From assembly GCA_026026165.1 (NCBI GenBank), contig JAPEUD010000016.1, positions 366,906 to 386,905 on the forward strand: a stretch of 20,000 nt of DNA. The letters run 5' to 3'. The translations under genes and the position numbers were made by a program. The notes beneath the pieces are model-generated. The model was not told the origin of the DNA and made no database searches. It saw only the letters and a program-made list of their open reading frames with translations. This document shows positions 5,288-20,000 of this stretch, one piece after another; position 1 is the stretch's first letter, and every line of letters begins with the position of its first letter. The DNA is from Sarea resinae (taxonomy: Eukaryota).

Positions 5288-6010
5288 ATGTCGTGGCAAG
5301 GTAAGTACTCGGCCTCAAGCTTCCATTACCCATCCTCCTTATCCGCTAACTCTTATGGTCTCATAGCATATATCGATCAGAGGTATGATCGCGCACAGTT
5401 ACGTTCTAGCTTTCTTTTATCAGCCTGACGTTTCTCAATAGCCTCGTTGGCACCGGCAACGTCGACAAAGCCGCCATCTATGACTCGACCGGCAAAAGCG
5501 TATGGGCTACTTCCTCCAACTTCTCCGTATGTATACTCTGTCTTTGCACTTTGTTATGCTTCTCCACCCACCTGGAGACTAGGAGAGCATTTCCTCTGCT
5601 GCCTTTTCGATATTTTATTGAAGGTATGATGAGGCTAGTGAAGGATGCTAATGTGAGGCCAGATTTCACCAGCCGAGATGGATGAGGTGGTCAGCGCATT
5701 CAAGGACAAGGGAGATGAAAATGGAATAAAACAGGTTCAGAGCACTGGTTTGCATGTTGCCGGGGAGAAGTATATCGTCCTTCTGGCAGAAGAGGACAAG
5801 CGTATAATTGGCAAAAAGGTAATCTTTCTGGCAATCTGTTATGCCCATCTTAGTCCAGGTTCTAATTCCTTCCAGGGCAAGGAGGGTGTCGTTATTGTCA
5901 AGACGACACAAACCATCATCATCACGCATTATCCCGAGACCGTACAGCCTGGCGCCGCTACCAACACCGTCGAGCAGCTGGGCGAATACTTGGTCAGCGT
6001 GGGCTATTAG
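5288..6010 (+). CDS. PFY1: Profilin (134 aa); join(5288..5300,5367..5382,5442..5526,5663..5818,5876..6010)
   Basis: The spliced product MSWQAYIDQSLVGTGNVDKAAIYDSTGKSVWATSSNFSISPAEM...GLHVAGEKY...GKKGKEGVVIVKTTQTIIITHY...VEQLGEYLVSVGY is a classic profilin. Four GT-AG introns with CTRAC/CTAAT branch sites; total 405 nt. Confidence 0.96.
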
Positions 6011-10031: not shown

Positions 10032-12541
10032 ATGGCTCATCAAACAAATGGATTTTCGACTCCATCGTCGCGGGCCGCCGCCAAACCACCGCCGAAGATA
10101 TGGAGCGCAAAGGATTTTCCTGCCAGTAGTCATCAGCAGTTCAGGGAGAGCAATCAGGAAGACTCTGGGTCGCCTTCCGAAGGAGCAGCGATCGTCATTG
10201 ACAATGGTAAGCTCATCGATCGTGCTATTCTGGTCATGTTCAAATCAAACCTTGCAATTGACAATGATCGATAGGATCCTCCACTGTCCGAGCGGGCTGG
10301 TCTACCGACAGGACTCCACGCATAACTCTGCCTCCTCTCATGGCTCGATATAGAGATCGCAAACTTGGCAAGACCTATACATTCGTGGGTCCAGATGCCT
10401 ACGTCGATGCAACCTCTCGGGGTCAGACAAGGAACGCCTTTGATACAGGCACGAGCATAGTAAATAATTGGGACGTCATGGAAGGAGTCTTAGACTTCAT
10501 TTTCTTGAACATAGGCGCCCATGGCCAGGACGGTGGGGTGGGATGCCCAATAGTCATGACGGAGCCTGTCGCCAACTTGGGCTATTCCCGGAAAAGTATT
10601 GAACCAAATTCACATCCTGTTGATATGGTCGAGAGACTAACCGCGATATCAATAGCCATGACGGAGATCATATTTGAGTGTTACTCGGCACCTTCCCTTG
10701 CTTACGGCGTAGACTCGCTATTTTCCTACGACTATAATGGCGGCAAGACTGGGCTTATTGTATCTTCATCACACACGTCAACACATCTTATCCCGGTCTT
10801 CGACACCAAGCCACTATTACCGCTTGCGAGTCGATTGAATTGGGGTGGGTTTCAGAACGCTGACTTTCTGCTCAAACTTTTAAAGCTCAAATACCCCACC
10901 TTTCCTGGGAAAATTAGCGATATGCAAGCCGAAGACATGGTTCGAGAGCATTGCTATGTATCTCAGGATTACGAAAAGGAGCTCAGCACCTACCTCGATT
11001 GGAGCGGCCTGGAGGATCGGGATCATATCATCCAGTACCCTTTCACAGAACAGATTGTGGTGGAGAAAAGCCAAGAGGAACTCGCGCGGATAGCGGAGAA
11101 AAGAAAAGAGAGCGGCAGGAGATTACAAGAGCAAGCAGCGAAGATGCGTTTAGAGAAGCTTGTGAAGAAAGAGGAAGAGCTTGAATACTACAAGCACTTA
11201 CAATCAAGGGCGGCTGCAGAGACGAAAAAGGAGTTCAAGCGATTGCTTGAAGCTGACGGTTTCAGAGATGAAGCTCAATTAGATAAGCGGATAAAGGAAT
11301 TGGATAAATCCATAAAGAAGGCAAGGACTAAAGATGTGGGAGGAAATGAGAATGAAGAGGAGGATGAGCCGCCATCGTTTCCTTTCCTAGATATCCCGGA
11401 TGAGGATCTGGACGAGGCTGGTCTGAAGCAGAAGCGACATCAACGTCTGATGAAGTCAAATCATGAAGCTCGCCTTCGCGCAAAGTTGGAAAAGGAGAAG
11501 GAGAAGGCTCGGATAGCCGAAGAAGAGCGACTAGATGACGAGCGACGCGATAATGACTTGGAGGGTTGGCTGGCAGAGCGAAGGGCCGTCCGAAATGTAA
11601 ATTTCCCGATAGTCACTTTGAGAAGAATCGTACTAATTTTTTCGATCAGTCCCTGCTACAGAAGATAAAGGACAGAGAACGGCTCAAGGCCGATCTAGGA
11701 AACCGAAAATCACTTGCAAGTCAGATGCGCATGAAGAGTATCGCCAACCTCGCCTCAGACAATCCGACTAAGAAACGTCGTAGGGGAGGTGATGACGACA
11801 ATTTCGGTGCTAATGATGAGGACTGGGGTGTCTATCGCACTATCGCAACTGGCGAACAGAGTGATGACGACGAGGAAGAGGATACAAATGTCGGACTCAA
11901 GAACGTCGAGGCACAGCTACTAAAGTACGATCCATCCTTTACGGAAGATCATACCATCGAGGCCCAGTCAGATTGGACTAAGAGTTTGATGCACGCCTTC
12001 CTACGCGGTCCTTGGCCGTTCAACCCAGAAAGTCAAAAGGAAATCCATCAAATACATCTGAATGTGGAAAGAATTAGGGTCCCTGAGGTTGTCTTCCAGC
12101 CTTCAATTGCGGGCCTAGATCAGGCAGGTCTCGTTGAAATAGCGGCAGATATTCTCACGCAACGGATATCCGACCCTCACCATCAATCAAGGATTTTCAG
12201 GAATATATTTCTTACCGGTGGGAATACTCTTTTTCGCGGCTTTGAGGAAAGATTTCGCAATGAATTGAAGGCTGTCCTGCCGGCAGATGCGCCGTTGAAT
12301 GTTTCAAGGGCGGGTGACCCTCTGTTGGATGCTTGGAAAGGCGCATCCAGATGGGCCAGTGGACCTAGGTTCAAAACGGCTTCTGTCACAAGAGAAGAAT
12401 ACCTTGAAAAGGGTGCTGAATACTTCAAGGTGAGTCCCATAGTAGCACCCACCCATTTCTCTCCTCTTCTCTTCAAAACTATAGTGACCCTGTCCTAACA
12501 TTTATAAGGAGCATAACTTGGGCAACGCATATGTGGCTTGA
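10032..12541 (+). CDS. ARP5: Actin-related protein Arp5, INO80 complex (749 aa); join(10032..10206,10275..10595,10656..11596,11650..12429,12509..12541)
   Basis: Has the actin-fold start AIVIDNGSSTVRAGW, MARYRDRK, the Arp5-specific charged insertion EKRKESGRRLQEQA and DDDNFGANDEDW, LNVERIRVPEVVFQPSIAGLDQAG, and the terminal EHNLGN. Four introns; total 2250 nt. Confidence 0.96.
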
Positions 12542-13163: not shown

Positions 13164-14238
13164 CTAATCGCCGGTTCCGGTTCCGTTCGCGTCTGGCCTT
13201 TGAAGCGTATCACTAGCTGCTTGAGTGAATTGTGGCCCGTCTCCATTTTTTATCCTTTTGGAAGGGTAGTTGTTGCCGATTAGGTAGGCTGCCTCTTCGT
13301 GATGATGCTTTCCACTTCCTAGGTCGGCCACTGCCTGCGCTGCTGAAGCTTGAAGCTGGCTTACTGTAGATGATCCCATAGGCGCCGTCGGTGCGGGGAT
13401 CTGCTGAAGAGGATCGGGCCGCGGATGTGGTAGATCGATATTGGAGGGAGGCTGTGGATATTCACCCTGTGCTTCGATGAGTCTCGACTGCAGGTTGATG
13501 ATGTAGTCGCGTAGTTGATAATTCTCCGCCTGAATAGCCTTATAGTTCTCATTCAGCGCATTATAATCTTTCACCTGTTCCTCCAACTTCTTGATGTAGC
13601 CTTCCTTGCGCTGGCGAAAAGCACGCTGTTTGCCCAACTTATGTAAGCATGTGCATGTCTTGCGAGATGACAACGAATTGACAAAGCAACGATGAAGCGG
13701 AACAACAATAATCGCAAGATGACCTCATCCATGACTTTACAACGACAATAATTATACGACATGCGAATGCTTACTTGAGCAGCCCTATTTTGCGCCGCGC
13801 GCTTCGATGTCGACAACTCGCGTTTTCCACCCTTTTTGCTATCGCTCCCGTTATCATCTCCACCACTGTCTGCGCTATTGCTCACGTTCATGGCACTCCC
13901 TGCGATGGCAGGGTCAATGTTATGATCGTGAGGGCTGGCGGAGCTGGATGGACCCATGGCTTCCAGAGTGTGCTGAGGAGCCGGCGGCGAATGCACCTGG
14001 GCGAGCAAATGCTCTCTTAAGCCTACAAAATCAACACAAGTCAGCGCTGATGCGCTTCGAACCGCCTTGTCTCTTGTACGACAAATCGTATAAGAATTTG
14101 GGGGTTATCTACTTTGTTCTGCTGCATTTTCCTGGTGGTTTCATCAGCACGCGTACAGTGAGGGTTGCGGGCTCCAGAACTTCGTACCTGCGCTGAGCTC
14201 TGCATTGGATGCGATGCTGGGGCTATCGCCGGCTGCAT
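13164..14238 (-). CDS. kapC: bZIP transcription factor, KapC-like (Yap/AP-1-like basic region), ~259 aa; join(14238..14188,14131..14113,14022..13775,13625..13164)
   Basis: The N-terminus MQPAIAPASHPMQSSAQ and the basic region KRELSTSKRAAQNRAAQ|RAFRQRKEGYIKKLEEQV, followed by AIQAENYQLRDYIINLQSRLIE, match Aspergillus KapC as I recall it. The 19-nt exon 2 needs a weak GTAGAT donor, so that exon is less certain. Confidence 0.85.
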
Positions 14239-14844
14239 CTTGAATGGCAGTTAGGGAATCTATATCTGGGTGTACGGACAATTTCTTCGTACTTTGAAGG
14301 ACGGGGCAATGATGGTACTCTCTTCGAGCGTGGAACAATGGAGGTAAAAGGCCGTGGGATTGCGACCGGATATGACCTAGGAATGGCCTTCGCGTCGGAG
14401 ACGGAGAAGCGAGCTTCTCGAACACTCCCTTGGTCCCTTCCGCTTTGCACCTCCCAATTTGTACTTTATGGAAGTTAGCGACAAGAATGCGAATCGTGAT
14501 ACAGATCGTGATTTCGTGTTTCGTGCGTCGCGACTATAATTTTGAATCTCCCGGCCTTCAAGTGGTATACCTAACACAAAGTTACGTACGGTCTGACGGG
14601 TGAAGCTATGTAATCAAACGCTGACAGAACTTCGTCGCTACGTCTTTAGGATGATGAGTAAGACTTCGTAAGGCAGAGCAGCGGAAAAGCCGGCCGAGAG
14701 GCGGGGCTCGGAGCAAACTTACTGCCGAGCGATGAGACCGGGTCCAGTTGGAATGGAAACGCGTACTCCGGAGTACACCGCAAAGTAAGCGCATACCTAC
14801 GTAGTAGGTAAGGTACCTAAGGTAGAGAGCAGACTTGCTCTTTA

Positions 14845-15400
14845 TATGCATATAATTAACTCTAGTAAGTTTTAGAATATAGAATAAGTACTTACGTACT
14901 TAAGTATAGGTATTTTTAAGTTTAATAGTACTAGTAGTAATAGTATTATAGGTGTATTATAACCTCTCTAAGTACTATTAATGTTTTAAAAGTGTTTTAA
15001 TTCTTTAGAAATTAAAAGTACCTCTATTTTTAGTACCTATTATTTACATAGCTATAGCCTATAAAGAACATAGTTATAATTTATATAAAGGGCACTATAG
15101 TCTGCTTTATATAGCTATAAGCTAAGCTATATTCTCTATCTCTAGTAAGACTAATTTAATAGTAGTAGATAAGATTAGCTTAGAGAATTAAGTTAACTTC
15201 TATACATTTATCTACTTCTATATTAATTAAGTCTTAATATAGTAATAATACTACTCACTTACATCTATAAGTAGATAGAATATACTATATTATACTACCC
15301 TAAGCACTATACAAACTCTAGACATACTACTATAGCTTTTATACTAGCAATGTTTTTATAAGTTTTTAGTGTATATATACTCAGAGTAGAGGTAAGAAGA
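14845..15400. repeat. AT-rich tract, probable RIP-degraded transposon/repeat relic (element family not identifiable)
   Basis: Abrupt drop in GC, very dense TpA/TAG/CTA, scarce CpA/TpG and CpG, and frequent stops in all frames. This is the typical composition of RIP products. Boundaries are approximate. Confidence 0.7.
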
Positions 15401-15572
15401 GCAACAATAAGAGCAAGCAGCAATAAGCGTATCGATAATAGCAACAACAAGACCAAAAACAGTACAATTAGACACAACAAGACTAGGATCATACAATGCT
15501 ACTATCAGTAGCAGGGCTCAATAAGCATTCCTCTATACCGTCCGATAGATCTGCAACGACCCTTAGTGTACC

Positions 15573-16381
15573 TTACACCACCCCGAGAACGTGCTTAACA
15601 CGTCTGACTTTATTAGCGTTCGCCGGGCCTTGATTGTTATGTATGTAGGCGGTCACGAAGTTCTGCCGATGAGAGGCGTTCAAGCTGGTTCGAAAGAAAA
15701 ATATCTCTTGCGGGAAGCGCTGGACCAGGAAGACGATGTCTGCGTAGTCTTTGAGGTCTGCTCTATCGAAACAGGCAGCCAGCTTGCTGGAAATTGCATG
15801 CGAAACATTGACTACCGGGTATGTACGCTGGTTGTAGGGGACGGTATCCAGAGAAGTAGCAGGCTCGTCTGGTGCGCCAAGAGAGCCTTTGGAGTGTTAA
15901 TAGGGTGGACACATTGAAAATCCTGCCTTTTGACTCACTACGCAGGATCAAATCTACCTCGACCAACTTGTTTTGGGCAATAGTTCCTTCCAGATTGATA
16001 AAGATCCTCATCACCCCAGAAACGGGTCCGGCCGGACGCAAAACTCTGAATTATCCTAGCTTATTGTAGCGGTCAATCGTACGGAAGGTCTGTTACTTAC
16101 CTGTCTAGGGGCGTCAAAGTTTGAAGGAGTGTCAGCATATTGCAGCCCACAGCAATGTCAACATCGTGGGTCTCTCGAGTGCTCCCTCGAAGATTCAGGG
16201 CGAATCCACCCATAAAGGCAAATGATATGGCACTACCAGACAAAACTCGAGACATATAATCAGCGGTCCTAACGAGCTGCGTTAAAGTCGCATTGCGGGA
16301 GTAGGCCTCAAGTTGGTGTTGCTGCTGAGAGGTATACAATTGGGATTGCGCTAGTTGAGCTTGCTGAATCTGTTGAGACAT
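15573..16381 (-). CDS. AbiEii/MenT (DUF1814)-like nucleotidyltransferase-fold protein, 233 aa; join(16381..16101,16045..15939,15886..15573)
   Basis: Two GT-AG introns (16100..16046 and 15938..15887) give an open 702-nt CDS. It contains FAFMGGFALNLRGSTRETHDVDIAV (hGG-x-DhD), LVEVDLI and SKLAACFDRADLKDYADIVFL (KL.A...R...KD..D). Exon 3 is not in the ORF track. Confidence 0.8.
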
Positions 16382-18315
16382 CTCGACAAGTGATGCTTCG
16401 ACTAGTTAGGGACAAGAATCCTGATAGTGACTTAACAAAGCGTATTGAAAAGTTGATGCCTTGTGCGACGGAGAAAGAAAAGGTTGAAGATGAAATAAAG
16501 TGATTCTCTCAAAGGTAGGTATGATAATTTATATTACCTCTTCTCCACCACCATTACCGCGAGCTTCCTCCAAGCGTTACTATTTGTGCGAATGAGCCTA
16601 TTGAATACTCGTGGACGAATAGTACGTGTTTCTCTTGAACATCTGAAACTTTAGTCGTTTGAGAAACCTATCATCAAAGGCTGGTTTTCTTTCATGTGTT
16701 TCGGGGAAGCGCCAGCTAAAGGTGACAGCTTCGCATATGGTGATTTGGTGATTGATGGTATGTTCTTCATGAACTTTGAGGGCGTAGGTATGATCCATAG
16801 TCCCGGAAAAACGCTGCAAAAAGATCAATCGGTTTCAAGGATGCGGGCCGGAGGCGTAGTTGGCTAAAGCTGCCTAGAGCTGATATTCCCGTCGCACAGC
16901 TGGGTGGCATAGCTAGCTGCTTGCCGCTCAGATCCTTCGCAGATCCTGGCTCTTTATTGCCCGCATATCCATAAGGGAGGTAATGCAACGTTGAGCCGCT
17001 TGCAATCTCGAGAGGCATCCCGATTAAGGTCTTGCCGCTTCGGATCTTCCAGTGTTGTTCAATGCCGTTTGAAGTCAACGTTTTACTAGAACGCTCCATG
17101 GAAGTCGTTTTTCTTGGATCGCGAAGACCATTTCTTCAGTCGTTTGCTGAGCTCCCACTTATTATTTTGCTAGCCATTGCGGCATTCTCGTAGAACTAGT
17201 ACAAAAGCATCAAGGTTCGGAAAGATGTTTTGAGCGATCATGTAGGCTAAAGAAAAGACCAAGAATGCGGTAAAGGGGAGATGCAGCGGGTAAAACGGAT
17301 ACTTGTTCTTGGATGCCAATGGGTGGAACAAGTCAGCCTTCTCTCCAAGCGCGCGCTGCGGCTGAAATCTTGATTAGCCTTGGATTTTTCGTGCCCTCGG
17401 ATGACGCAAGTATCGTTCCCACCAAACTTAGCATGATAGGTAATCTGTATCAAGGGAGCAGAAAGAATACTTAAAAAAAAGGAGCGTGCATTTTCGATGA
17501 GTAGCATGAAACGAATGCGATTTTTTTATCGTACAATGGCGAGAGATATTGGATACTACGCAGCGGTGCGCGTCGTCTTGGAATCGTCTATTGATGGAAA
17601 ACCCTATTAGAGCAGCTCCATACTCCGGCCAATATATAGTATTAAAATTCTGAACCTTTTCAAAACCTCGAAGCTTTCTCTTCTTTGTCCCTCTGGCTGC
17701 GAGTCTTCCCGCAATGCTTCTCTATTCTCCAAGAGCTTTTGTTAAGGCTCTTCAAGATGCTAGCCTCCATAGGAGTTGGGTCAAGGATCTCCATTCATCT
17801 CCTGGCAATCGCTCTTATTCTATTCTGTGGCTAAAGTACGTTTAATCACTCTGGCTTCCAATAGGGCTGATTTGATTACAGGTCTTCTGCTCGCTGGCTG
17901 CATTTCTACCTCGCCAGGCATCTGATACTCCATCTGGTCCCGGCCAAGATTGATGATGGCGCGTATGTCCGAGTAGGCTATTATGGTACATCGGTATTTT
18001 TGCTTGTGAATGCGTTGGATTATTTTTCGAGACGCATTGAGGCCTGAGAGGTTATTGCCAAAGGGGATATACGCTGTGAGATTCCACAGCGTAGCCATGT
18101 CAGGCGAGAACGAGTTCCAGGGAAACCTGACCGCGGTGGTAGTAAAAGCTTTTGGGTGGTTCGGGATGATGGTACCGTAGCTAGCGCGAGCTCACCGAGG
18201 ATCTGTCTATCCGACAGCCCAGACGGTAATATATTGCATCTACTCCCCATCCTTGGGATTCTTTCAAAGTAGACAGTTACAGTAATTTGAAAGATTCAAG
18301 TGTGCCATCGGCCTC

Positions 18316-19183
18316 TCAAGCACAAACCCTGTCTTCCAACCGTGGATCTAGGCTACCACGTGGACGGAAGCGAGTCGCAAACACCTCCATTGGCAACCCA
18401 GGTTTGATGCGGCGCGCTTTAGTTGACACGATCCGATCCCAAGCTTCCTTCCGGCTGAATGGGCCTACACAAACTTCAAGAAGACAGTAAGCGTCCGGAT
18501 ACGGGGCCGAAGCTCTCATCGCTTTGTTCTTTTGCTCAGCCCACACGGTGTCATTCGTGCCACTAAGATCAAGGTGCTGTTCCCCCCATTCTTTAGATAG
18601 ATCCATACCATCGACCAGATCGGTCAGGTCGACGAGTCTGTGCATGTCTAGCAAAGCCTGTGCAAAGACATCCAACTTCGGATAAGGGATCTGCATCATG
18701 CTTATCTCGAAATTTGTTGGATCGCACTCAAAGTGGCAGTCCTGTGAGGGGACAAGCTGAACACAAAGTTGGACGCCTTTGCACTTGAAACGAGGAAATG
18801 TGTGTAGTAGAGACTCAGGTTGTGGCAGTAGTGGCCCGGTCAATTCGTAGTCGTTGGTATAAGGTGTAGATTGTAAGGCTGTGGACACAAAATCCAGTCT
18901 CTCAGTAGGAACACAAACACACCAATCCTGTCAGATAAGCCTATGAAAGCATACTACCTGATCTTCTGAGTGAACTCACATGTCTTATCCGACCTGCCCC
19001 ATAATATATAAGAGCTGAAGTTCCAACTAAGCAGCAGGTGATTCCAAGATCTTCCTCTAATATGTTGATAAAAGTCTTAATCTCCTTAGTCCCATGACCA
19101 TAATAGCTTGCTATCCGGTCGCCGTTAGCATCGATAACGTTTTCATCGAGTGGAGGCAAGCTTAGGTGACTTAAGTCTGCCAT
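18316..19183 (-). CDS. Fungal hypothetical protein with a degenerate nucleotidyltransferase-like N-terminal motif, 271 aa; join(19183..18980,18927..18316)
   Basis: A 52-nt intron at 18979..18928 (GTGAGT..CTGAC..AG) joins two ORFs in frame. The product contains LGITCCLVGTSALIYYGAGRIRH|DWCVCVP, then LLHTFPRFK, IPYPKLDVFAQ and DLTDLVDGMDLSKEWG. The gene model is solid; the NTase fold is inferred from motif shape only. Confidence 0.72.
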
Positions 19184-19269: not shown

Positions 19270-20000
19270 CCTAGGTATCTAGCATGATAAGGTTTCTTTG
19301 GTACGAAGTACTAGTGGTAGAAACCCTAGGTAGTAGAGAGTTCTTAATTCAATAAGAAAGAGTTCTAAAAAGCTAGAGAGAAGAAAAAGTAGTAAGGAGA
19401 GTGTAATAAGGTGTGTCTAACTTTTTTCTAGGCTACCTACCTAGGTACCTAGTATAGCTAGTAATAGAAACTCTAGTTAATAAAAATGTATTATAAGAGT
19501 ATATTAATTATATAAAGTAATAATAAATTAATAATATTAGTAAAAAAAGTAATATAATATATATAAATAGAGAGATATATAACCTTAAAAGTAGAAGCTA
19601 GAGAAGTAAATTTCTTAGCAGTCTAATTAATTAATATAGTTTTTAAAGAAAGCTTAATTCTCTACTAAAAAATGTAAACTTAAGTAGTAAAGACTTATTA
19701 AATTTACTAAAGGTTTTTCTCTTATACTAATTTAAGAAGTAAACATTAAGATATCTTCTTATATTAGTAAAAATATAAAATAGGTTATACACCTATAGTG
19801 TTTGTTAAGAGGTAGCAAAGATAAGTACTAGGTATTACTAGAGAAAGAGTACTAAAGAAGTAGTAGTAGAGAATGTTAGAAGGTAGCATAAAGATATAAG
19901 TAGAGGAAGGTGCTAAAGAAGTATAGTATAGAATGATTGTGTATTGTGAACTTAGAGATTCTAGCTATAGAGGTGTAAGGCAGTCAATATATAGACTTGA
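19270..20000. repeat. AT-rich tract, probable RIP-degraded transposon/repeat relic running off the window end
   Basis: Very high AT with pervasive TpA (e.g. 19480-19580), depleted CpA/CpG and no ORF of 60 aa or more. Confidence 0.72.

What the first reader, a model, noticed from the sequence alone, without database searches (positions are those of the whole stretch)
15573..16381. Intact, intron-containing fungal gene with the motif set of bacterial AbiEii/MenT type IV toxin nucleotidyltransferases
Seen: after removing two canonical introns, the protein has MGGFALNLRGSTRETHDVD, a third acidic strand VEVDLI, and SKLAACFDRADLKDYAD. Established: hG(G/S)..DhD plus KL.A...R...(K/R)D..D characterise DUF1814/AbiEii/MenT NTases, which are toxins in type IV toxin-antitoxin and abortive-infection systems. 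MenT toxins modify tRNA acceptor ends, and MenT3 is silenced by phosphorylation of a Ser just before the DxD; this protein has Thr at that position (RETHDVD). Inference: a domesticated, probably catalytically competent toxin-like NTase in a fungal accessory region, possibly acting in defence, allorecognition or drive. I know of no characterised fungal function for such a protein.
Basis: partly seen in the sequence, partly recalled or inferred. Interest (0 to 1): 0.75.

Follow-up and report, generated by a model that had tools for sequence, protein, structure and literature searches.

The report
Fungal MenT-like enzyme with conserved partner
A fungus carries an intact relative of the bacterial growth-arresting toxins that add nucleotides to RNA ends, and this gene sits beside the same second, unnamed gene in other fungal genomes, much like a bacterial toxin-antitoxin pair.

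Summary

A 271-aa gene of no known family (19183..18316) lies 1.9 kb upstream. Its homologue sits 0.2-0.9 kb from the NTase homologue in 8 other distinct fungal contigs, either in tandem or convergent. The flanking genes differ in every contig, and the two genes co-diverge. The partner's N-terminus is a degenerate copy of the NTase core. The papers I read say fungal DUF1814 genes are not linked to putative antitoxins.

My best reading is a eukaryotic two-gene DUF1814 module. The antitoxin-like role of the partner and an RNA/tRNA target are inferences. No expression or binding evidence was obtained.

The parts
16101..16381 (-). NTase gene exon 1 (aa 1-93 plus 2 nt). It holds a 33-aa N-terminal two-helix extension and motifs I/II: G58 G59, R69, T71, D73, D75.
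16046..16100 (-). Intron 1, 55 nt, GTAAGT...CAG. The same position recurs in homologues.
15939..16045 (-). NTase exon 2. It carries the third acidic strand VEVDLI, with D125 at 15952-15954.
15887..15938 (-). Intron 2, 52 nt, GTGAGT...AAG. The same position recurs in homologues.
15573..15886 (-). NTase exon 3 with stop. It holds motif III (K164 L165 ... R171, 15762-15785) and motif IV (K175 D176 .. D179, 15738-15752).
16169..16171 (-). Codon of T71, equivalent to the phospho-acceptors MenT1 T39 and MenT3 S78. It is at least 90% conserved in 43 fungal homologues.
16382..18315 (.). 1.9-kb spacer between the two genes. None of its 8 ORFs of at least 70 aa has a match in the other loci.
   Evidence: Pfam gave nothing for two of them
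18316..18927 (-). Partner gene (NB) exon 2, 203 aa plus stop. It begins DWCVCV, the counterpart of the NTase DxD strand. 30 columns are invariant across 8 loci.
18928..18979 (-). NB intron, 52 nt, GTGAGT...CTGACAG, phase 0. An acceptor AG sits directly before exon 2 in 8 of 8 other distinct loci. The full GT..AG intron was defined in the window and 5 other loci.
18980..19183 (-). NB exon 1, 68 aa, ATG at 19183. It ends ...GAGRIRH and holds the degenerate helix-strand-G-x-S-helix part of an NTase core.
14800..15450 (.). AT-rich block with a RIP signature: GC 0.27, TpA/ApT 1.85, (CpA+TpG)/(ApC+GpT) 0.38.
19350..20000 (.). Second AT-rich RIP-like block, cut by the window end: GC 0.25, indices 1.86 and 0.35.

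Best explanation
The 233-aa gene encodes an intact DUF1814 (AbiEii/MenT-type) nucleotidyltransferase of the short MenT1/Pb27 kind. It belongs to a patchy family in which every named member found is from Pezizomycotina.

It is one half of a conserved two-gene module. The other half is the 271-aa gene at 19183..18316 (NB). NB is an acidic protein of no named family whose N-terminus is a degenerate copy of the NTase core.

Proposed working:
- The basic NTase (pI 9.2) uses D73/D75/D125 with K164/D179 to transfer a nucleotide onto a nucleic-acid 3' end, most likely tRNA as in MenT1. This would arrest translation.
- NB keeps the NTase in check, possibly through the conserved T71 phospho-switch.

Shown: family membership, fold, conserved residues, and linkage and co-divergence of the two genes.
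Inferred: catalysis, the RNA target, toxicity, and the neutralising role of NB.

My odds:
- Member of DUF1814: 0.95.
- Functional two-gene module: 0.85.
- NB is an antitoxin-like regulator: 0.35.
- tRNA is the target: 0.3.
For: Family and fold:
- Pfam 35.2 bits against 22.5. 9 PADLOC AbiEii models hit.
- AF2 model pLDDT 95, pTM 0.90.
- Foldseek top hits: MenT1 1.8e-7, Pb27 7.4e-7.
- Profile A1 against PDB sequences: MenT1 7.2e-12, Pb27 6.2e-9.

Residues:
- T71, D73, K164 and D179 align with MenT1 T39, D41, K137 and D152. D41A, K137A and D152A abolish MenT1 toxicity (PMC10435456 passages).
- G58, G59, T71, D73, D75, K164, L165, R171, D176 and D179 are at least 90% conserved in 43 homologues.

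Resident fungal gene:
- Both intron positions recur in homologues.
- GC3 resembles that of neighbouring ORFs.
- 19 of 20 clusters looked up carry a Pezizomycotina name and 1 has no name.

Module:
- An NB homologue lies 0.2-0.9 kb from the NTase homologue in 8 other distinct loci. All 7 loci with at least 2 kb held on both sides have it.
- Order is tandem NB-then-NTase in 4 of 9 loci and convergent in 5 of 9.
- Between distinct loci there were 0 flank-to-flank ORF matches, while the pair matched in every comparison. Flank genes differ in every locus: ORC2/ArgJ, peroxiredoxin, ECH/HAUS6, MutS, Pil1 and others.
- Pairwise identities of the two genes correlate, r 0.67. In a Mantel test 25 of 5000 permutations reached this value.

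NB is NTase-like:
- The NB profile hits 5 of 184 stored proteins, always at the helix-GG-DxD region, at E 1.4e-4 to 1.6e-3. 37 passed the Viterbi filter against 0.2 expected. None of 20 shuffled sets gave a hit.
- hhalign of full-length NB against A1: 52 columns, E 6e-4.

Parallel with bacteria:
- NB has pI 5.1 and the NTase pI 9.2.
Against: - No RNA evidence that either gene is expressed or spliced was obtained.
- In L011, NB carries two in-frame stops while the NTase looks intact. A strict poison-antidote pair should not tolerate this.
- The NTase itself carries in-frame stops in L001-3, L004/5 and L006, so the module is dispensable.
- L007 holds an NTase homologue with no NB in 0.9 kb upstream or 4.7 kb downstream.
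- NB keeps an acidic pair (D-W-E) in 5 of 9 loci, so it could itself be an enzyme rather than a regulator.
- MenT1 T39A stays toxic, so conservation of T71 argues for regulation only by analogy.
- All loci come from one pattern-based scan and are not a census of fungal genomes.
Confidence: 0.5

Rival explanations
1. A two-enzyme small-molecule pathway. The NTase, perhaps together with NB, nucleotidylates a metabolite or xenobiotic, as ANT(2'')-Ia and LnuA do with antibiotics. The pair would be a resistance or detoxification cassette, not a toxin with its regulator.
For: - Two family members pass the Pfam Aminoglyc_resit cut-off over its N-terminal part: P0057 22.7 and P0041 22.9 bits against 21.
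- NB keeps D-W-E in 5 of 9 loci.
- An intact NTase with a broken NB in L011 is harmless under this reading.
- Dy et al. [quoted passage not shown]
Against: - P0001 itself hits only AbiEii in Pfam at E up to 0.1.
- It carries DUF1814 motif IV (K175 D176 x x D179), described as specific to AbiEii/DUF1814 proteins.
- NB loses one of the two acids in 4 of 9 loci (DWC, KWE twice, EWD) and has no second glycine.
Confidence: 0.2
2. A stand-alone fungal NTase. NB is merely a neighbour with no functional tie, and the adjacency reflects shared descent of a small chromosome segment.
For: - Dy et al. 2014 and later papers state that fungal DUF1814 genes are not linked to putative antitoxins.
- L007 has no NB in the sequence held.
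- Eukaryotic neighbours need not be functionally related.
Against: - Only the two genes are shared between 10 distinct loci, with 0 flank-flank matches.
- Orientation changes while adjacency is kept.
- The two genes co-diverge.
- NB shares the NTase N-terminal core motif.
Confidence: 0.1
3. A non-catalytic protein. It keeps the NTase fold but serves a structural, binding or surface role. The fungal relative Pb27 is known only as an antigen.
For: - Pb27 is described only as an antigenic NTase-like protein (5UVD title).
- An AbiEii-family protein is listed among abundant proteins of Paracoccidioides extracellular vesicles (figure legend).
- Some Colletotrichum AbiEii proteins are predicted to be secreted.
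Against: - Every metal-binding and nucleotide-binding residue is at least 90% conserved across 43 homologues at 21-51% identity.
- By my reading of the N-terminus, it is Q-rich and has no hydrophobic signal-like stretch.
Confidence: 0.07
4. A decaying relic. The pair is a leftover of a once-mobile element and is not expressed in this fungus.
For: - RIP-like AT-rich blocks lie on both sides.
- The spacer is unusually long, 1.9 kb against 0.2-0.9 kb elsewhere.
- Copies with in-frame stops exist in 4 other loci.
Against: - Both reading frames and all three introns are intact.
- All conserved residues are present.
- RIP indices inside the island are normal.
Confidence: 0.08

Closest known systems
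MenT1 (Rv0078A) of the MenAT1 toxin-antitoxin system, Mycobacterium tuberculosis (PDB 8AN4, 8AN5, 8RR5)
   Same: - Short single-domain DUF1814 form.
- T39, D41, K137 and D152 are all matched.
- In 4 of 9 fungal loci a partner gene sits upstream on the same strand. I recall that bacterial antitoxin genes precede the toxin gene; Dy 2014 says so for AbiE operons.
   Different: - The fungal gene is eukaryotic, has introns and is monocistronic.
- It has an extra 33-aa two-helix N-terminus and a C-terminal helix.
- The partner is 271 aa and NTase-like. MenA1 is a 68-aa protein.
- Activity, target and toxicity are untested.
AbiE (AbiEi/AbiEii) type IV toxin-antitoxin / abortive infection system
   Same: - Same Pfam family as AbiEii, with motifs I-IV present.
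- NB has a degenerate NTase core.
   Different: - No bicistronic operon.
- No family match of any kind, including DNA-binding ones, for NB in Pfam or PADLOC.
- No phage context.
Pb27, antigenic NTase-like protein of Paracoccidioides brasiliensis (PDB 5UVD)
   Same: - A fungal DUF1814-superfamily protein.
- Keeps the GG ... R-R-T-E-D-V-D motif.
   Different: - A distant paralogue, 17% identity. Paracoccidioides has a closer homologue of this gene (P0020/P0177, E 6.3e-33).
- The function of Pb27 is unknown.
- Whether Pb27 has an NB-like neighbour could not be checked.
ANT(2'')-Ia and LnuA antibiotic nucleotidyltransferases
   Different: - P0001 does not hit their Pfam family.
- It carries DUF1814 motifs III and IV.
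- It scores lower against them than against MenT1 and Pb27.

Membership tests
DUF1814 / AbiEii (PF08843) | Scores above the curated Pfam cut-off | tested here: met
   35.2 bits against 22.5, E 1.7e-8, residues 43-188 on profile positions 3-172 of 238
DUF1814 / AbiEii (PF08843) | Motifs I/II, hG[GS]...DhD (Dy 2014) | tested here: met
   M57 G58 G59 ... D73 V D75. All are at least 90% conserved in alignment A1.
DUF1814 / AbiEii (PF08843) | Third acidic residue on a later strand | tested here: met
   D125 in VEVDLI aligns with MenT1 VVVDLL. It is invariant in 14 of 14 sequences in A2.
DUF1814 / AbiEii (PF08843) | Motif III, KLxAaxxR | tested here: met
   K164 L165 A A C F D R171. The aromatic residue is one position later than in the written motif. 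K, L and R are at least 90% conserved.
DUF1814 / AbiEii (PF08843) | Motif IV, +DxxD | tested here: met
   K175 D176 Y A D179. D176 and D179 are at least 90% conserved, and D179 aligns with MenT1 D152.
DUF1814 / AbiEii (PF08843) | NTase fold | tested here: met
   [not shown]
MenT-type tRNA-modifying toxins | The four residues named as the MenT1 catalytic site (T39, D41, K137, D152) | tested here: met
   T71, D73, K164, D179
MenT-type tRNA-modifying toxins | Nucleotide addition to tRNA 3' ends; growth arrest on expression | not testable with these tools
   Needs expression and tRNA 3'-end sequencing.
MenT-type tRNA-modifying toxins | A genetically linked cognate neutralising partner | tested here: inconclusive
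   A conserved linked gene exists: 8 other distinct loci with unrelated flanks and co-divergence. Neutralisation is untested, and L011 has a broken partner beside an intact NTase.
AbiE type IV TA system | Bicistronic operon with a COG5340 or COG4861 transcriptional-regulator antitoxin in front | tested here: not met
   The genes are separate and intron-bearing, 0.2-1.9 kb apart, and convergent in 5 of 9 loci. NB has no Pfam, NCBIfam or PADLOC hit.
ANT(2'')/Lnu small-molecule NTases (PF10706) | Match to the family profile | tested here: not met
   [not shown]
NB as an AbiEi-CTD-like or NTase-like fold | Significant structural or profile match | tested here: inconclusive
   [not shown]

The most novel reading that the evidence does not exclude
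This is a eukaryotic toxin-antitoxin-like (poison-antidote) module. A MenT-type NTase blocks translation by extending tRNA or other RNA 3' ends. A degenerate NTase-like partner switches it off, perhaps by inducing auto-phosphorylation of T71. The pair has spread to unrelated chromosomal sites across Pezizomycotina. It persists either as a selfish addiction or drive element, or as an abortive-infection-type defence against mycoviruses.
Probability: 0.22. Interest if true: 0.88.

Novelty: new variant of a known kind. Interest (0 to 1): 0.62.

Why it matters
DUF1814 toxins are established bacterial growth-arrest effectors. The papers I read treat their fungal relatives as not linked to putative antitoxins and report no biochemical function for them. 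A conserved partner gene that moves with the NTase through fungal genomes gives a concrete two-gene hypothesis. It can be tested by simple co-expression in yeast or Neurospora. If the partner neutralises the NTase, this would carry a prokaryotic toxin-antitoxin architecture into eukaryotes. The same principle would recur: an NTase-like pseudoenzyme controlling an NTase toxin. That bears on fungal conflict systems such as drive, incompatibility and antiviral defence. It would also suggest where to look for a function of the antigen Pb27 and of the AbiEii expansions reported in pathogens such as Colletotrichum.

Tried and rejected
- Complex prediction (collected) on NB exon 1, NB exon 2 and P0001 gave no verdict: median 0.47, with one control at 0.38. 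I do not use it either way.
- The look-up of sequencing runs, kind rna: no RNA holder was listed.
- No whole genome is held for the window.
- tblastn of P0001 on plasmids: no match.
- The search for related loci with the 43-sequence alignment failed because no stretch was conserved enough. I repeated it with the 14-sequence A2.
- The genome-contig scan returned only L025. It is a contig labelled Deltaproteobacteria MAG that carries the intron-split gene and eukaryotic neighbours, so it is a fungal contaminant.
- PF08843 on that genome: no match.
- Profile A1 on 88 genomes of that phylum: 11 other genomes match, but only over the N-terminal motif (query about 27-93, at most 33 bits), in ORFs of 150-191 aa. 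No usable bacterial full-length relatives were obtained, so no fungal-bacterial phylogeny was built.
- hhalign of NB exon 2 (A3) against A1: nothing.
- NB in Pfam, PADLOC and NCBIfam: nothing.
- A1 profile against NB: -2.4 bits.
- No fused NB-NTase protein among the 184 stored proteins.
- The exon-1 'longer' search found no NLR-type or other long fusion.
- Longer homologues carry only gag/jacalin (P0021) or no extra Pfam domain.
- The two AT-rich blocks share no direct or inverted repeat.
- AT-rich brackets are not a general feature: 0 of 9 other loci have a 400-nt window below 35% GC.
- The search of earlier findings by place, sequence and words gave nothing that bears on this locus.
- Literature. 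'AbiEii'+'fungal' found 26 papers, of which 25 were listed. 'AbiEii'+'fungi' found 32, 'DUF1814'+'fungal' 3, and 'AbiEii'+'Ascomycota' 3. 'nucleotidyltransferase'+'spore killer'+'toxin'+'antidote' found 0. In the passages I read, none describes a partner gene for fungal DUF1814 genes. Supplements were not opened.

Full report
**1. The observation**

The gene lies on the minus strand.
- Exon 1 is 16381..16101.
- Intron 1 is 16100..16046 (55 nt, GTAAGT...CAG).
- Exon 2 is 16045..15939.
- Intron 2 is 15938..15887 (52 nt, GTGAGT...AAG).
- Exon 3 is 15886..15573.

A script that joined these coordinates produced a 233-aa protein identical to P0001. P0001 is the record 'MAG: hypothetical protein M1819_001736 [Sarea resinae]', which I found by searching with exon 1 alone.

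The match is well beyond chance.
- Pfam AbiEii scores 35.2 bits against a cut-off of 22.5.
- Exons 1 and 3 each hit the same profile collinearly on their own.
- Nine PADLOC AbiEii models hit.

**2. What the protein is**

With a 43-sequence alignment, AlphaFold2 gives pLDDT 95 and pTM 0.90.
- Foldseek ranks MenT1 (8AN4) first at 1.8e-7. The fungal Pb27 structure 5UVD follows at 7.4e-7.
- Further down come ANT(2'')-Ia at 12.0, JHP933 at 11.8, LnuA and MenT3 at 11.5, and the AbiEi antitoxin at 9.3.

By sequence, P0001 finds MenT1 at E 7.9e-6. The family profile finds MenT1 at 7.2e-12 and Pb27 at 6.2e-9.

In these alignments T71, D73, K164 and D179 fall on MenT1 T39, D41, K137 and D152. Xu et al. 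2023 (PMC10435456, passages) name these four as the conserved catalytic residues. D41A, K137A and D152A abolish toxicity, while T39A stays toxic.

T39 is the residue auto-phosphorylated under the influence of the antitoxin, and MenT3 S78 is its counterpart (PMC11375011, sections 8 and 12). All four motifs defined by Dy et al. 2014 (PMC3985639, passages) are present.

**3. The family**

An exhaustive phmmer search of 1.84 billion representatives gives 197 proteins at E 0.001 or better, 57 at 1e-10 and 13 at 1e-30.

The named hits are as follows.
- In the two word-indexed searches, every named hit is from Pezizomycotina, except three labelled Quercus suber.
- Of 20 further clusters looked up, 19 carry a Pezizomycotina name and 1 has none.
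- The named genera include Sarea, Bogoriella, Ophiobolus, Curvularia, Emmonsiellopsis, Emydomyces, Paracoccidioides, Blastomyces, Aspergillus, Apiospora, Chaetomium, Glarea and Hyaloscypha.

The distribution across classes looks patchy. Identities to P0001 are 21-51%.

In the 43-sequence alignment G66 and R69 are invariant. G58, G59, T71, D73, D75, K164, L165, R171, D176 and D179 are at least 90% conserved.

Many short representatives match only query residues about 1-95 or about 126-233. tblastn segments in other loci break at residues 89-96 and 128-131. Both intron positions are therefore shared by distant homologues. GC and GC3 of the gene resemble neighbouring ORFs. This is an old resident fungal gene, not a recent bacterial import.

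**4. What is already known**

- Dy et al. [quoted passage not shown] - Cai et al. 2020 and Beck et al. 2020 repeat the first point in their introductions.
- A 2026 preprint lists Pb27 in the DUF1814 superfamily.
- Fungal genomics papers mention AbiEii domains without assigning a function:
  - Colletotrichum siamense has an expansion, with 11 proteins predicted to be secreted.
  - Skin-associated fungi are reported to carry the domain.
  - Sporothrix epigloea is reported to carry it.
  - An AbiEii-family protein is listed for Paracoccidioides vesicles.

The gene alone is therefore a new member of a known kind.

**5. The partner gene**

A second minus-strand gene, which I call NB, lies 1.9 kb upstream of the NTase start.
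- Exon 1 is 19183..18980 (68 aa).
- The intron is 52 nt (GTGAGT...CTGACAG).
- Exon 2 is 18927..18316.
- The product is 271 aa.

NB has no Pfam, PADLOC or NCBIfam hit. In the ESM Atlas its nearest clusters are unnamed ascomycete proteins, with scores of 0.94 and 187 and 69 members. Weak 0.84 leads point to Lnu-type NTases.

Exon 1 ends ...GAGRIRH and exon 2 begins DWCVCV. Laid beside the NTase motif, this reads as a degenerate copy:
- the second glycine is lost;
- Arg stands where T71 stands;
- D-W-C stands where D-V-D stands.

**6. Linkage of the two genes**

A pattern scan of metagenome contigs with a 14-sequence alignment returned 24 loci. A scan of GTDB genomes returned 1. After merging records with identical match statistics (flanks checked at 100% identity for L001=L003 and L008=L010), there are 14 fungal-type groups and 4 weak bacterial-type hits. 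The merged sets are L001-3, L004-5, L008-10 with L025, and L016-17.

tblastn with NB finds a homologue at 33-54% identity, 0.2-0.9 kb from the NTase homologue, in 8 groups.
- Tandem, NB upstream: L004, L008, L011. The window has the same order.
- Convergent: L001, L014, L015, L016, L019.

All 7 groups with at least 2 kb held on both sides have NB.

The 6 groups without NB are L006, L007, L012, L013, L018 and L020.
- Each has less than 2 kb on at least one side.
- An NB profile search of their six-frame ORFs also finds nothing, while the positive controls L001 and L011 score well.
- L007 is the most telling miss, with 0.9 kb upstream and 4.7 kb downstream held.

**7. The pair is the only thing shared between loci**

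I ran an all-against-all blastp of six-frame ORFs of at least 70 aa.
- Every pair of distinct loci matched only inside the two-gene span.
- There were 0 flank-to-flank hits.
- Only the duplicate records shared flanks.

In the window only the five exon ORFs have matches elsewhere. None of the 8 spacer ORFs does.

The flanks carry different ordinary eukaryotic genes in each locus.
- L001: ORC2 and ArgJ.
- L004: peroxiredoxin and a flavin monooxygenase.
- L008: enoyl-CoA hydratase and HAUS6.
- L011: a short-chain dehydrogenase and HET.
- L014: Pil1.
- L015: DUF7708.
- L016: MutS and a GHMP kinase.
- L019: a protein kinase, SOD and an Sde182-like protein.

Pairwise identities of NTase exon 1 and NB exon 2 across 8 loci correlate at r 0.67. 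In a Mantel test 25 of 5000 permutations reached that value. Related loci share history, so this shows joint inheritance, not interaction.

An acceptor AG sits directly before exon 2 in all 8 other distinct loci. The full phase-0 GT..AG intron was defined in the window and 5 other loci. NB exon 2 has 30 invariant columns across 8 loci.

**8. What NB is**

A profile of six full-length NB proteins, spliced only inside a script, was run against the 184 stored proteins. Nearly all of those are NTase family members.
- 83 pass the first filter against 3.7 expected, and 37 pass the second against 0.2 expected.
- 5 are reported, at E 1.4e-4 to 1.6e-3.
- Each hit aligns NB residues about 26-92 with the helix-strand-GG-helix-DxD part of the NTase.
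- Twenty shuffled copies of the set gave no hit at E 10 or better.

hhalign of the NB alignment against A1 gives 52 columns, E 6e-4 and probability 28.7%. The C-terminal 200 residues show no relation.

The exon-2 model is only moderate, with pLDDT 68, and finds nothing significant.

The counterpart of the DxD motif varies between loci.
- D-W-E in 5 loci.
- D-W-C in the window.
- K-W-E in 2 loci.
- E-W-D in 1 locus.

My reading is that NB is a very divergent NTase-core protein and probably not a conventional catalyst. Its fold remains unproven.

**9. Evidence that cuts the other way**

- L011 has two in-frame stops in NB while its NTase looks intact.
- The NTase has in-frame stops in L001-3, L004/5 and L006.

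The module is therefore dispensable. At least once the NTase seems to have outlived its partner, which a strict poison-antidote pair should not allow. Assembly error cannot be excluded for this single contig.

- Small-molecule NTases are structural seconds. Two family members pass the Pfam Aminoglyc_resit cut-off over its N-terminal part.
- No RNA run was listed for the locus.
- The two RIP-like AT-rich blocks around the window's 4-kb island are not seen in the 9 other loci. They share no repeats.
- All loci come from one pattern-based scan, so the sample is small and not a census.

**10. Verdict**

The gene by itself is a further fungal member of a family already known to reach fungi.

The new element is the conserved, co-diverging, relocating gene pair. 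The statements I read in Dy 2014 and later papers do not anticipate it.

My best explanation is a two-gene DUF1814 module in which NB regulates a catalytically competent MenT1-like NTase. The antitoxin-like mechanism and an RNA target are inferred by analogy. The main rival is a small-molecule nucleotidylation cassette.

Noticed in passing
L025 (genome contigs) = L008-L010; G001 contig C225: A 21-kb contig filed under a 'Deltaproteobacteria bacterium' MAG carries the intron-split NTase, the NB gene and eukaryotic genes (HAUS6, enoyl-CoA hydratase). It has the same match coordinates and statistics as the metagenome loci L008-L010. It looks like a fungal contig mis-binned into a bacterial genome.
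   Followed up: partly
L024:374-1181: A high-GC bacterial contig with an XRE-type HTH gene (104 aa, Pfam HTH_3 E 3e-13) that overlaps by 8 nt a 166-aa minimal NTase carrying GG...T-Q-D-V-D. This is a classical antitoxin-toxin operon layout and a weak relative of the fungal motif. L021-L023 look similar.
   Followed up: partly
L001:6001-6240, L004:6001-6789, L006:1378-1605, L011:2004-2603: Damaged copies. The NTase has in-frame stops in L001-3 (TAG, between the GG and DxD motifs), in L004/5 (TAA) and in L006 (TAA). The close relative of L004/5, L013, reads Q at the L004/5 stop position. NB has two stops in L011 (TAA, TAG). Several of these could be C-to-T changes of the RIP type. I did not test that.
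   Followed up: partly
window 14800-15450 and 19350-20000: Two blocks of 25-27% GC with strong RIP indices bracket the 4-kb island that holds both genes. They share no repeats, and the right-hand block is cut by the window end. What they once were is unknown.
   Followed up: partly
window 10268-12498 (+): Two overlapping open frames both hit Pfam Actin (E 6.9e-17 and 2.5e-23). A long charged, lysine/glutamate-rich insert lies between the two actin halves. It is probably an intron-bearing actin-related protein gene.
   Followed up: no
window 13164-13724 (-): An ORF with a bZIP_1 match below the Pfam cut-off (23.9 bits against 27.6).
   Followed up: no
window 5410-6010 (+): By eye the translated frames resemble a profilin-like small actin-binding protein split by an intron. 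No tool was run on them.
   Followed up: no
P0013, P0102, P0159: Three family members are filed under Quercus suber (cork oak). All other named members are Pezizomycotina, so these are probably fungal sequences inside the oak assembly.
   Followed up: no
P0021 (Aspergillus avenaceus, 586 aa): The NTase domain sits at residues 347-586, behind a retrotransposon gag match and a weak jacalin match. It may be a merged gene model or a copy next to a transposon.
   Followed up: no
P0001 residues 1-33 (window 16283-16381): The fungal family has a conserved N-terminal extension of two helices (pLDDT 76-94) that neither MenT1 nor Pb27 covers in the structural alignments. Its role is unknown.
   Followed up: no
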